Shown here piece by piece: positions 33,350 to 33,790 of a stretch of DNA of 64,000 nt; position 1 is the stretch's first letter; each line of letters starts with the position of its first letter. This stretch comes from Minisyncoccota bacterium (GTDB lineage: Bacteria; Patescibacteriota; Minisyncoccia; Phycocordibacterales; JBAYGS01). The position numbers were made by a program, and so were the translations under genes. The notes below the pieces were generated by a model. It made no database searches. It was not told the DNA's origin and was given only the letters and a program-made list of their open reading frames with translations. The DNA lies in contig JBAYGS010000002.1 in the NCBI GenBank assembly GCA_041666545.1, positions 106,395 to 170,394 on the forward strand, read 5' to 3'.

Positions 33350-33394
33350 GCCCTATCGTCTAATGGTTAGGACACGGCCTTTTCAAGGCTGTAG
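33350..33394 (+). pseudogene. partial tRNA-Glu copy (5' 45 nt: acceptor, D-arm, anticodon arm)
   Basis: Matches positions 1-45 of the intact tRNA-Glu at 33538 with 1 mismatch. Followed by unrelated GC-rich sequence instead of a T-arm. Confidence 0.5.
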
Positions 33395-33537
33395 AGGGGT
33401 GAGCTTGGGGTGGGACCCAAGCGCAAGGCCGGAGCGAGCGAAGGCGAGTGAGGCGGGGTCGCAGAATTTTTCAGCAGAAAAATATCTGTGACCGACTCAA
33501 AGGAGTCGAACCCGGTTTAGTTTGATAATAAAATATT

Positions 33538-33609
33538 GGCCCTATCGTCTAGTGGTTAGGACACGGCCTTTTCAAGGCTGTAATCGGGGTTCGACTCCCC
33601 GTAGGGTCA
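33538..33609 (+). tRNA. tRNA-Glu (anticodon TTC)
   Basis: GGCCCTATCGTCTAGTGGTTAGGACA-CGGCC-TTTTCAA-GGCTG-TAAT-CGGGG-TTCGACT-CCCCG-TAGGGTC-A gives a canonical cloverleaf. Confidence 0.85.
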
Positions 33610-33619
33610 CAACGCAAAT

Positions 33620-33660
33620 GCGCAACCGCCGAGAGGCGGTTTTGCGTTGTGACCCTAAGC
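33620..33660 (+). terminator. nested hairpin / intrinsic terminator directly after tRNA-Glu
   Basis: GTCACAACGCAAA...CCGCCGAGAGGCGGTTTTGCGTTGTGAC has an inner GC hairpin plus T-run inside a 13-bp outer stem. Confidence 0.55.
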
Positions 33661-33756
33661 AGAGCTAAACGCTCTGCGTCGGGGAGTCGAAGCCTGTTTG
33701 AGTATTTTTCTAAGCTTCTGAAGCGTAAGAAAAATCCAAACAGGGTACTGACCCTG

Positions 33757-33790
33757 TAAGGGTCGAATCTCCCCGTAGGATCACTAATAA
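33757..33790 (+). repeat. tRNA-Glu 3'-end-like fragment (T-arm/acceptor-like)
   Basis: GGGTCGAATCTCCCCGTAGGATCA resembles the intact tRNA-Glu 3' end CGGGGTTCGACTCCCCGTAGGGTCA. Confidence 0.4.

What the first reader, a model, noticed from the sequence alone, without database searches (positions are those of the whole stretch)
33350..33790. tRNA-Glu locus with a 5' partial copy upstream and a 3'-like fragment downstream: footprint of integration or rearrangement at an island boundary
An intact tRNA-Glu(TTC) sits at 33538-33609. A 45-nt copy of its 5' half (one mismatch) lies 188 nt upstream at 33350-33394. A T-arm/acceptor-like fragment lies about 150 nt downstream at 33757-33790. In between are nested GC-rich hairpins. 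This locus, with tRNA-Ser and the homing-endonuclease gene immediately to its left, marks the left edge of a roughly 12-kb accessory block (33.3-45.7 kb). That block has patchy GC content and carries ArsR, RadC, OLD, R-M, a toxin-antitoxin-like pair, denV, VOC and YbaK genes, plus many GC hairpins. No integrase is present, so it could be a decayed integrative element or a tRNA-targeted recombination hotspot. An alternative reading is that the 5' and 3' fragments are exons of a split tRNA with a large intervening element (the acceptor pairs with one mismatch), but this is less parsimonious.
Basis: seen in the sequence. Interest (0 to 1): 0.55.

Follow-up and report, generated by a model that had tools for sequence, protein, structure and literature searches.

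The report
Hairpin modules appended to tRNA genes
The tRNA-Glu gene here is followed by a ~175-base hairpin-rich insert that ends in a copy of the tRNA's own tail, and is preceded by the stranded front half of the older gene copy; the same kind of insert follows roughly 10-20% of tRNA genes sampled from related ultra-small (CPR) bacteria, so it is a recurrent, apparently undescribed small element, not the edge of one large island.

Summary
There is an intact tRNA-Glu(UUC) at 33538-33610. A 45-nt 5' copy lies at 33349-33393 with 1 mismatch. A copy of the tRNA 3' end lies at 33763-33784, and hairpins lie between them.

The interpretation needs revising. The 3' copy is not the edge of a 12-kb island. 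It closes a 174-bp non-coding module (33611-33784). The module consists of a hairpin, an inverted copy of the tRNA 3' half, a structured core, and a direct copy of the tRNA tail starting in the T loop.

Modules with this plan follow tRNA-Glu, -Ser, -Arg and -Val genes in many Patescibacteria, including tRNA-Arg in this window (13657-13784). Sites with identical tRNAs are either empty or filled. Several core types occupy the same site. Modules stack in tandem, and some carry cargo genes. A nine-sequence alignment shows four covarying helices.

The 5' copy is the front of the ancestral gene. It sits behind the conserved promoter, is identical to the orthologues, and is followed by a relic of a second module type.

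The split-tRNA reading is rejected. No integrase or distal att repeat was found. The mechanism of spread is inferred, not shown.

The parts
33241..33271 (+). Conserved divergent promoter-like block, TTTTTGCGATTTTCGCAAAAAATGCTATGCT (TTGCGA, 16 nt, TATGCT). In relatives it lies 14-20 nt before tRNA-Glu. Here it precedes the pseudo-copy.
   Evidence: The same block lies upstream of tRNA-Glu in L142, L140, L067, L160 and L163. It falls below the threshold of the simple promoter scan on the + strand. The - strand half is called as TTGCGA/TACAAT.
33349..33393 (+). Pseudo-tRNA-Glu: the 5' 45 nt (acceptor 5' strand, D arm, anticodon arm with UUC) of the ancestral gene copy, carrying A15.
   Evidence: It matches the intact gene at 44 of 45 positions and matches the orthologous tRNA-Glu of L140 and L142 at 45 of 45. 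Rfam tRNA gives 25.9 bits, below 29.
33394..33498 (+). Relic of a type A module core. It contains hairpin 33401-33422, the purine-rich motif CCGGAGCGAGCGAAGGCGAGTGAGGCGG at 33429-33456, an A/T-centred hairpin at 33455-33493, and the truncated start of a tRNA-tail copy (CCGACTC, 33492-33498).
   Evidence: It is homologous to module cores downstream of tRNA-Glu in L130, L022, L116, L079 and L021, and to the insert in the L067 pseudo-copy (nhmmer; pairwise alignments).
33502..33529 (+). Truncated inverted T-arm copy (GGAGTCGAA) plus the first ~17 nt of a type C core. With 33493-33498 it forms the hairpin CGACTC-AAAG-GAGTCG.
   Evidence: It forms a direct repeat with 33683-33699 (88%) and an inverted repeat with the tRNA T arm at 33581-33598.
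33538..33610 (+). Intact tRNA-Glu(UUC), carrying G15. No CCA is encoded.
   Evidence: ARAGORN and Rfam, 62.1 bits.
33611..33648 (+). Spacer hairpin (AACCGCC-GAGA-GGCGGTT inside ACGCAAA/TTTGCGT). It is terminator-like, and it is the apex of a long palindrome whose arms are the tRNA 3' end and its inverted copy.
   Evidence: Inverted repeats I2 and I10 and the fold. The simple terminator scan did not call it. The equivalent position in relatives holds canonical A-tract/hairpin/T-tract terminators.
33649..33691 (+). Left arm of the module. It has an inverted copy of the acceptor 3' strand plus discriminator (GTGACCCTA, 33649-33657), a 7-bp hairpin (33658-33679), and an inverted copy of the T-stem 3' strand plus T loop (CGGGGAGTCGAA, 33680-33691).
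   Evidence: Equivalent arms that match the local tRNA are seen in relatives.
33692..33762 (+). Type C core: a long hairpin (33693-33744), then GTA, then the start of a short hairpin with loop TGTAA (whole hairpin 33748-33766, its 3' strand running into the tail copy).
   Evidence: Alignment A1 and RNAalifold give 33 pairs, 24 of them with compensatory changes. In the pair count, 90.1% of cells are paired against 65.2% in shuffles, and 0 of 500 shuffles reach the observed value. The covariance model R1 scores 114.6 bits here.
33763..33784 (+). Direct copy of the tRNA 3' end, from the T loop to position 74 (TCGAATCTCCCCGTAGGATCAC). This is the displaced or duplicated tail that closes the module.
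   Evidence: In filled sites of relatives, the flank after this copy is orthologous to the flank directly after the tRNA in an empty site.
13657..13784 (+). Second member of the family in the window. This is a type B module after tRNA-Arg(CCU) (13584-13656), with the inverted T-arm copy at 13700-13711, the core at 13712-13768, and the tRNA-tail copy at 13769-13784.
   Evidence: R1 scores 46.2 bits. It is identical at 90 of 106 aligned positions to the module after tRNA-Glu in L008, except in the tRNA-matching segments.

Best explanation
The locus is a tRNA-Glu gene that has been modified at least twice by a family of small (about 120-190 bp, up to ~300 bp), non-coding, hairpin-rich insertion modules. 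These modules are widespread behind tRNA genes of Patescibacteria (CPR).

Module plan. Each module starts right after an intact tRNA and contains, in order:
- a spacer hairpin, often a terminator;
- an inverted copy of that tRNA's own 3' half, interrupted by one hairpin between the acceptor and T-stem parts;
- a structured core, of which at least four sequence types exist;
- a direct copy of the tRNA's last ~16-22 nt, beginning in the T loop.

Formally this equals an insertion into the T loop that brings its own replacement 3' end. The tRNA therefore stays functional and the old tail is pushed downstream.

What is shown:
- the architecture and its recurrence;
- empty and filled sites;
- different core types at one site;
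- tandem stacking and versions carrying cargo genes;
- a conserved four-helix fold;
- near-identical cores next to different tRNAs, with arms that match each tRNA.

What is inferred:
- The modules are, or were, mobile non-autonomous DNA. They would be moved in trans by a recombinase acting at the near-palindromic T-loop sequence TTCGAA, or by copy-choice template switching there.
- The tRNA-matching arms are re-templated from the neighbouring tRNA, for example by quasi-palindrome correction.

In this window, 33611-33784 is an intact type C module. The 45-nt upstream copy is the 5' part of the ancestral gene, left behind the promoter after a rearrangement. That rearrangement put a relic of a type A module and a new 5' part (G15) downstream of it.
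For: 1. Recurrence. 15 of 122 tRNA-Glu loci carry a copy of the tRNA's last 16 nt (2 or fewer mismatches) 80-300 nt downstream. 42 of 218 tRNAs (Glu, Ser, Arg, Val) carry at least one signature of the module, and the inverted T-arm copy always lies 41-71 nt after the tRNA.

2. Empty versus filled sites with an identical tRNA-Glu. L129, L131, L132, L137 and L140 are empty. L128, L130, L134, L135, L136, L138, L046 and L085 are filled. The flank after the tRNA in L132 aligns with the flank after the tail copy in L138 and L085.

3. Turnover. Core types A and C, and variants of them, occupy the same murF/tRNA-Glu(CUC) site.

4. Tandem arrays and cargo. L163 shows an array of type C, type C, type A. 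In L138 and L097, cargo genes lie between the tRNA and a module.

5. Copies within one genome. In L067 the cores after tRNA-Ser and tRNA-Val are about 96% identical, while their arms match each tRNA. The tRNA-Arg module in the window and the tRNA-Glu module in L008 are identical at 90 of 106 aligned positions outside the arms.

6. Structure. 24 of 33 pairs show compensatory change, and 90.1% of cells are paired against 65.2% in shuffles (0 of 500 shuffles reach the observed value).

7. Model search. R1 finds six instances that were not in its training set. Every strong hit (about 40 bits or more) is on the same strand as, and just downstream of, a tRNA or a tail copy, in 1.03 Mb searched.

8. 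Neutral decay. L135, L139 and L141 show uncompensated changes in the arm and an 18-nt insertion in the tail copy. This fits selfish or neutral DNA.

9. The 5' copy. It is identical to the orthologues (A15) and lies behind the conserved promoter, whereas the working copy has G15. L140 and L142 lack the copy. L067 has an analogous 5' fragment with a homologous type A insert.
Against: - No recombinase, transposase or autonomous parent element was found in any locus, so movement was never observed directly.
- The start of the tail copy varies between T-loop positions 54 and 60. A single precise site-specific recombinase would not do that.
- The inverted copy of the tRNA 3' half, with its regularly placed hairpin, is not a feature of classical integrase att sites. 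No known mechanism predicts it.
- The strong conservation of structure could instead mean an RNA function. 16 of 20 modules fold more stably on the tRNA strand, and single mismatches in helices are G:T 14 versus A:C 4.
- No core-less scaffold, which would be an intermediate form, was seen.
- The exact history of the 5' copy is not resolved. It could be an insertion that carried a replacement 5' part, or a ~185-bp tandem duplication followed by disruption.
- The sample is biased, because loci were fetched through tRNA-Glu.
Confidence: 0.5

Rival explanations
1. The module is a functional structured RNA made from the tRNA strand. It could be a tRNA-like trailer, with an acceptor-like stem, one hairpin and an extended T stem enclosing two hairpins, that is processed by RNase P or RNase Z. 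Alternatively it could be a three-part switch in which the antisense arm pairs either with the tRNA 3' half or with the downstream copy, controlling tRNA maturation or read-through into downstream genes.
For: - The type C module has four helices with abundant compensatory change.
- Loop sequences are conserved: TGTAA, and CTGC in the arm hairpin.
- The module alone folds into an acceptor-like closing stem with branches, whereas tRNA plus module prefers pairing between the tRNA 3' half and the antisense arm.
- The + strand is more stable in 16 of 20 modules, and G:T mismatches outnumber A:C 14 to 4.
- The architecture is kept across several candidate CPR phyla/classes.
Against: - A terminator usually separates the tRNA from the module.
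- Modules are absent from many loci with an identical tRNA.
- Different core types replace each other at one site.
- Close variants decay without compensation.
- Within alignment A1, G:U (7) and A:C (6) are balanced, so the helices are equally good on either strand or as DNA.
- No Rfam family matches.
Confidence: 0.2
2. The fragments are attL/attR-type scars of a conventional integrase-borne island, now decayed and lacking its integrase, that spans about 33.3-45.7 kb.
For: - A tail repeat that starts in the T loop and runs to the 3' end is what integrase-type integration into tRNA genes leaves (established knowledge).
- The downstream interval is variable between relatives.
- That interval contains a low-GC defence block.
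Against: - Both tail copies lie within 174 bp, to the left of the accessory genes.
- There is no third copy in the 64 kb.
- No integrase was found.
- The same 120-190-bp structure recurs at many tRNAs with no large island between the repeats (at most 1.6-3.1 kb of cargo, in L138 and L097), has a conserved internal fold, and includes an inverted arm.
Confidence: 0.1
3. This is purely local rearrangement: replication template switching or fold-back at the terminator and the T-arm palindromes creates the inverted and direct copies de novo at each tRNA, with no mobile unit involved.
For: - The direct, inverted, direct order of tail copies, and the palindrome continuing through the tRNA/trailer boundary (17 bp perfect here), are typical products of template switching.
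- Junctions fall in the near-palindromic T loop at variable positions.
Against: - This does not explain shared cores at different tRNAs and in different genomes.
- It does not explain the regularly placed hairpin inside the inverted arm.
- It does not explain a covariance model that recognises members across tRNA isotypes.
Confidence: 0.1
4. The 5' copy and the 3' fragment are exons of a split or intron-containing tRNA-Glu.
Against: - 28 joins give no tRNA in ARAGORN, and intron mode up to 400 nt finds only the intact gene.
- No group I intron or other ribozyme model matches at E up to 10.
- The 3' fragment has a degenerate T arm and is engaged in module helices.
- An intact gene lies between the two pieces.
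Confidence: 0.01

Closest known systems
Integration of tyrosine-integrase elements (phages, ICEs, islands) into the 3' part of tRNA genes (established knowledge)
   Same: The inserted DNA carries a replacement copy of the tRNA 3' end. The gene therefore stays intact, and a direct repeat running from the T loop to the 3' end flanks the insert. The site is reused repeatedly.
   Different: Here the insert is 120-190 bp and non-coding, and no integrase is present. An inverted copy of the same tRNA segment, with an internal hairpin, is part of the insert. The start of the repeat varies within the T loop. The same core occurs at tRNAs of different isotypes.
CIMEs (cis-mobilizable elements): att-flanked, recombinase-less remnants that accumulate in tandem with ICEs/IMEs (ICEberg 2.0, PMC6323972; review PMC5704250)
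   Same: The elements are non-autonomous and bounded by att-like repeats, and they stack in tandem at one target (L163; the relic plus intact module in the window). Some carry cargo.
   Different: CIMEs are kilobases long and derive from a recognisable ICE by deletion. No parent element is known here. The modules have a conserved compact fold and arms matched to the tRNA.
Integron gene cassettes with attC sites (established knowledge)
   Same: The recombination-site-like unit is an imperfect palindrome whose outer arms are complementary (inverse core and core). Its structure is conserved more than its sequence. Cassettes may lack an ORF, carry cargo, or form arrays next to a fixed site.
   Different: There is no IntI gene or attI, and the core site is not GTTRRRY. 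The arms equal the 3' half of the neighbouring tRNA, and the fold is branched.
MITEs and IS200/IS605-derived palindrome-associated elements (established knowledge)
   Same: The elements are small, non-coding and hairpin-rich, with near-identical copies within a genome (L067). Cores always start directly 3' of T(C/T)GAA, which recalls insertion 3' of a fixed pentanucleotide.
   Different: The terminal inverted repeats are not constant but copy the adjacent tRNA. There is no short target duplication. No transposase partner was identified. The elements are found only behind tRNA genes in about 1 Mb searched.
Group I introns in Patescibacteria tRNA genes (PMC13011429)
   Same: They occur in the same phylum, and tRNA genes are hot spots for inserted structured elements that standard annotation misses.
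   Different: Those are self-splicing introns at position 35/36 of tRNA-Asn and tRNA-Asp. Here no intron model matches, the tRNA is uninterrupted, and the element lies after the gene.

Membership tests
tRNA (Rfam RF00005) | Cloverleaf scoring above the gathering threshold (29 bits) | tested here: met
   33538-33609 scores 62.1 bits, and ARAGORN calls tRNA-Glu(UUC). The upstream copy at 33349-33418 scores 25.9 bits, which does not meet the threshold, so it is a pseudogene.
Integrase-type tRNA integration footprint (attL/attR) | Direct repeat of the tRNA 3' segment (from the T loop or anticodon loop to the 3' end), with an intact tRNA at one end | tested here: met
   33591-33610 versus 33763-33784. 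The same is seen in 15 of 122 tRNA-Glu loci.
Integrase-type tRNA integration footprint (attL/attR) | Integrase or recombinase gene inside the element, next to an att site | tested here: not met
   There is no ORF in the 174-bp module. No integrase, recombinase or transposase Pfam domain occurs in the ORFs of 33.8-48.1 kb. The cargo genes of L097 and L138 are PIN-domain, restriction-enzyme-like and methyltransferase genes only.
Integrase-type tRNA integration footprint (attL/attR) | Island bounded by the two repeats | tested here: not met
   The accessory genes lie outside the repeat pair, and no further tail copy exists in the 64 kb at up to 3 mismatches in 20.
CIME-like non-autonomous att-flanked element | Flanked by att repeats, lacks recombination genes, presence/absence polymorphism, tandem accretion | tested here: met
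   Empty and filled sites and the array in L163.
CIME-like non-autonomous att-flanked element | Related autonomous element with the same att site and an integrase | tested here: not met
   None was found in about 160 loci (about 1 Mb) or in viral contigs. The search space was limited.
MITE / IS200-IS605-derived palindromic element | Constant terminal inverted repeats or subterminal hairpins recognised by a transposase, and a short or absent target duplication | tested here: inconclusive
   Subterminal hairpins are present, and cores begin 3' of T(C/T)GAA. However, the outer inverted repeats change with the tRNA, and the duplication is 16-22 bp.
MITE / IS200-IS605-derived palindromic element | Multiple near-identical copies per genome | tested here: inconclusive
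   In L067 the tRNA-Ser and tRNA-Val cores are about 96% identical, and L163 has two tandem copies. No whole genome could be surveyed.
Integron cassette (attC) | Adjacent intI/attI and a GTTRRRY core site | tested here: not met
   The gene upstream of the tRNA-Glu(CUC) sites encodes a C-terminal ...LVRQEKEWL... sequence that I read from memory as murF-like. It was not checked against any protein library. The arms are tRNA sequence, not GTTRRRY.
Split or intron-containing tRNA | Joined exons form a valid cloverleaf, and an intron of a known class (group I, or bulge-helix-bulge) lies between them | tested here: not met
   ARAGORN finds nothing in 28 joins or in intron mode. No intron or ribozyme family matches at E up to 10.
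Known RNA families (Rfam 15) | Match to any covariance model | tested here: not met
   Only the tRNA matches in 33150-33900. All other hits are chance-level.

The most novel reading that the evidence does not exclude
These modules are a previously undescribed class of element specific to CPR bacteria: a compact, four-helix structured unit (DNA hairpin or RNA) that attaches to the 3' end of tRNA genes. Its outer arms are rewritten to mirror whichever tRNA it sits behind, so one core serves Glu, Ser, Arg and Val genes. That would mean either a new, target-templated mode of site-specific insertion, or a new family of tRNA-coupled regulatory or processing RNAs that can also anchor small defence-gene cargos.
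Probability: 0.3. Interest if true: 0.85.

Novelty: new variant of a known kind. Interest (0 to 1): 0.62.

Why it matters
- Annotation. tRNA fragments of this kind should not be read as island borders or split genes in CPR genomes. The 3' copies belong to a small recurrent module, and the 5' copies are stranded parts of older gene copies.
- Biology. CPR bacteria have tiny genomes, yet they appear to tolerate a prolific family of non-coding inserts at tRNA genes. Some of these inserts carry restriction-modification or PIN-domain cargo. That makes tRNA tails a candidate landing pad for accessory DNA in organisms where conventional integrases are not obvious.
- Mechanism. If the tRNA-matching arms are copied from the target, this would be an unusual route to site specificity.
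- RNA alternative. If the module is instead an RNA, it would be a new structured class coupled to tRNA expression.

Tried and rejected
- Rfam at permissive thresholds found no family other than tRNA.
- The split-tRNA or intron reading was rejected.
- A search for a distal att repeat in the window found none.
- Synteny through ABC-2 permease homologues was uninformative. The closest contigs (66-78% identity) are not syntenic at this locus. L124 instead shows a different element next to tRNA-Ser(GCU).
- A viral-contig scan with the tRNA tail returned only phage tRNA arrays.
- A viral-contig scan with the type A core 18-mer returned only coincidences inside a phage coding sequence.
- I considered a link between the LAGLIDADG gene and the 5' copy and rejected it. 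The gene keeps its place upstream of tRNA-Ser(CGA) in L160-L163, and L160 and L163, which also carry tRNA-Glu, show no 5' copy in the sequence read.
- I considered a retroviral-type primer-binding-site reading of the antisense arm and rejected it. The arm complements the genomic trailer, not CCA (direct reading of the sequences).
- A search for long autonomous versions through the TGTAA-loop hairpin found none.
- Literature searches for a description of such elements found nothing. One further query failed on syntax.
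Full report
**What is in the sequence**

The window comes from a Patescibacteria (CPR) metagenome contig (ENA ERZ27249449 k141_1294488, 194 kb). ARAGORN and Rfam both call tRNA-Glu(UUC) at 33538-33610.

A 52-nt direct repeat (94% identical) joins 33342-33393 to 33531-33582. 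It covers the first 45 nt of the tRNA, with one mismatch (A15 versus G15), plus 7 nt of leader. The Rfam tRNA model scores the upstream copy at 25.9 bits, below the threshold of 29.

Downstream, 33763-33784 repeats the last ~20 nt of the tRNA, from the T loop to position 74.

**The 3' fragment closes a small module, and the module is a family**

A scan of one genome per species for the first 25 nt of this tRNA-Glu returned 120 loci, mostly Patescibacteria.

- In 15 of 122 tRNA-Glu genes, the last 16 nt recur 80-300 nt downstream.
- Over all tRNAs in the fetched loci, 42 of 218 (Glu, Ser, Arg, Val) show at least one of three signatures: an inverted acceptor strand, an inverted T arm, or a direct tail copy.
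- The inverted T arm always lies 41-71 nt after the tRNA.

The common plan is as follows:
- the tRNA;
- a spacer hairpin, often a textbook terminator;
- an inverted copy of the acceptor 3' strand;
- a 7-9-bp hairpin, often with loop CTGC;
- an inverted copy of the T-stem 3' strand plus T loop, always ending in T(C/T)GAA;
- a core made of hairpins;
- a direct copy of the tRNA tail, starting at T-loop position 54-60.

Cores fall into at least four sequence types. In the window, 33611-33784 is a type C module. A type B module follows tRNA-Arg(CCU) at 13657-13784.

**Evidence that the module is an insertion**

A metagenome scan for the identical tRNA-Glu 3' half gave 15 more loci. With the same tRNA, and in the CUC-isoacceptor loci (all but L136 and L140) the same upstream coding sequence (…LVRQEKEWL…), some sites are empty (L129, L131, L132, L137, L140). 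Others carry a module of type A or type C or a variant of these (L128, L130, L134, L135, L136, L138, L046, L085).

The GTGAAC-box flank lies directly after the tRNA in L132. It aligns with the flank after the tail copy in L138 and L085.

Modules stack. L163 has type C, type C, type A in tandem, each closed by a tail copy. Modules can also carry cargo. L138 has a methyltransferase and an unknown ORF between two tail copies, the distal one preceded by a full type C module. L097 has PIN-like and restriction-enzyme-like genes between the tRNA and a type D module. No integrase was found in any of these.

**Structure**

Nine type C modules (120-140 nt; behind Glu, Ser and Val genes) align to a consensus of four helices. 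RNAalifold predicts 33 pairs, 24 of them with compensatory change. In the explicit pair count, 90.1% of cells are paired against 65.2% in shuffles (0 of 500 shuffles reach the observed value), and at most 53% when the partners are slid.

A covariance model built from this alignment found further members in 1.03 Mb of loci:
- L050;
- L053, after a tRNA cut off by the locus end;
- L163, after tRNA-Ser;
- the second tandem type C copy after tRNA-Glu in L163;
- the tRNA-Arg module in the window;
- L008.

Every strong hit is on the same strand as, and just downstream of, a tRNA or a tail copy.

Whether the fold matters as RNA or as single-stranded DNA is open. The tRNA strand folds more stably in 16 of 20 modules, and single mismatches are G:T 14 versus A:C 4. 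Within the type C alignment, however, G:U (7) and A:C (6) are balanced.

**The unusual feature**

The same core serves different tRNAs, while the arms copy the local tRNA. In L067 the cores after tRNA-Ser and tRNA-Val are about 96% identical, but the arms match each tRNA. The tRNA-Arg module in the window and the tRNA-Glu module in L008 are identical at 90 of 106 aligned positions, including the spacer and the arm hairpin, yet they differ in the tRNA-matching segments.

Classical att sites, MITE terminal repeats and integron attC sites do not behave this way. My inference is that the arms are re-templated from the adjacent tRNA. The tRNA tail, spacer and inverted arm form one long palindrome (17 bp perfect here). 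Quasi-palindrome correction by template switching is an established process that could do this. This step is not shown.

Close variants (L135, L139, L141) accumulate uncompensated changes in the arm and an 18-nt insertion in the tail copy. This argues against strong selection on the fold in that lineage.

**The 5' copy**

The relatives L142 and L140 share the arrangement ABC transporter, tRNA-Ser(CGA), a 72-nt divergent promoter block, tRNA-Glu(UUC). In the window, that promoter block (33241-33271) precedes the 45-nt copy, not the working gene. The copy is 45 of 45 identical to the orthologous tRNA (A15), whereas the working gene has G15. So the copy is the front of the ancestral gene.

The copy is followed by a relic of a type A core (33394-33498). 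This relic is homologous to cores behind tRNA-Glu in L130, L022, L116, L079 and L021. A truncated inverted T arm with the start of a type C core comes next (33502-33529), and then the leader and the working gene.

L067 has an analogous upstream fragment: tRNA nt 1-19, a 93-nt homologue of the same type A sequence, and then tRNA nt 21-43. Upstream 5' fragments of at least 16 nt occur in about 10% of the tRNA-Glu loci. In L006 one of them flanks a small ORF that I read by eye as a GIY-YIG nuclease, without a domain search.

I cannot tell which of two histories produced the window's arrangement:
- an insertion that carried a replacement 5' part;
- a ~185-bp tandem duplication followed by disruption of the first copy.

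**The island**

The block at 35.5-40 kb has GC of 0.32-0.39 and encodes Old, a type II restriction enzyme and a C5 methylase. tRNA-Val(GAC) lies 14.5 kb after tRNA-Glu here, against 0.36 kb in L067 and about 1.7 kb in L140. The interval is therefore variable.

However, it is not bounded by the tRNA-Glu repeats, no distal copy exists, and no integrase is present.

The LAGLIDADG gene (33184 to 32096, minus strand) reads through tRNA-Ser(CGA). Its homologues are about 335 aa and lack the last ~36 residues. In three other genomes they occupy the same position, overlapping tRNA-Ser(CGA); L160 and L163 also carry tRNA-Glu nearby and show no 5' copy in the sequence read. The gene is a neighbour of the tRNA-Glu rearrangement, not its cause.

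**Comparison with known systems and verdict**

The module works like an integrase-type insertion into a tRNA gene, in that it brings a replacement tail and leaves a direct repeat. It accumulates like CIMEs or cassettes. It fails the membership tests for each of those families: there is no recombinase, no constant ends, no attI/intI, and the arms are tRNA-templated. It matches nothing in Rfam. I found no description in the searchable literature. The nearest paper concerns group I introns at position 35/36 of other Patescibacteria tRNAs (PMC13011429).

I file it as a new variant of a known kind: a small non-autonomous insertion element specific to the tRNA tail. Confidence is about 0.5, with a structured-RNA function as the main rival. 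The mechanism of spread and of arm matching is inferred and needs whole-genome census, population reads and transcript data.

Noticed in passing
window 13584-13784: tRNA-Arg(CCU) is followed by a 128-nt module of the same family (type B) that ends in an exact 16-nt copy of the tRNA tail (13769-13784). It is 85% identical to a module behind tRNA-Glu in another genome (L008), apart from the tRNA-matching segments.
   Followed up: partly
window 32096-33184 (- strand) and tRNA-Ser 32117-32207: The LAGLIDADG homing-endonuclease-like ORF runs through the whole tRNA-Ser(CGA) gene. Its homologues (about 335 aa) lack that tail. In three other genomes (L160, L161/L162, L163) they again sit directly upstream of, and overlap, tRNA-Ser(CGA). 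This looks like a large family (689 hits) of tRNA-Ser-associated free-standing endonuclease genes.
   Followed up: partly
window 33801-33834, 34109-34139, 44834-44873, 20848-20881: A ~34-nt A/T-rich palindrome (TCTATTCTAGCTTTTTGCAAAAAGCTAGAATAGA and variants) occurs four times. Two copies flank the ArsR-like gene and one lies near the right side of the accessory block. It could be an operator, a terminator or a boundary repeat. Its function is unknown.
   Followed up: no
window 5825-6281, especially 6122-6181: The RNase P RNA (class A, 115 bits) is 457 nt long against a 367-position model. It contains a 60-nt near-perfect palindrome (30-nt arms, 90% complementary). This is a hairpin expansion inside a functional RNA.
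   Followed up: no
window 35520-39982: A low-GC (0.32-0.39) defence block encodes an Old-family ATPase/TOPRIM nuclease, a MutH-like type II restriction enzyme and a C5 cytosine methylase. It is followed by an HTH-SocA/Panacea antitoxin-like gene.
   Followed up: partly
window 33283-33341: The ~78 nt between the promoter block and the pseudo-copy is an ACTA/TAGT-rich stretch with inverted repeats (GTTGTAGTTAG...CTAACTACAAAC). Relatives have 14-20 nt at this position. A similar TAGT/ACTA-rich palindromic leader precedes tRNA-Glu in L022, and a related repeat lies at window 15525-15612.
   Followed up: no
window 43851-43923 and 45106-45138: Another palindrome family (GAACGGCTCATTTAAC / GTTAAATGAGCCGTTC) occurs twice within the accessory block.
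   Followed up: no
L006 5440-5843; L108 (around the tRNA-Glu at 6643-6717): Small ORFs that I read by eye as GIY-YIG nucleases (no domain search run) are inserted at tRNA genes with partial duplication of the tRNA. In L006 the order is: tRNA-Glu nt 1-47, carrying a 30-nt palindrome in the anticodon loop, then the ORF, then an intact tRNA-Glu. In L108 the ORF and a tRNA-Glu lie between two overlapping partial copies of another tRNA-like sequence.
   Followed up: no
L124 660-2400: Next to tRNA-Ser(GCU), a ~1.5-kb stretch containing one long ORF is flanked by ~100-nt inverted repeats. It looks like a different small mobile element. The ORF was not identified.
   Followed up: no
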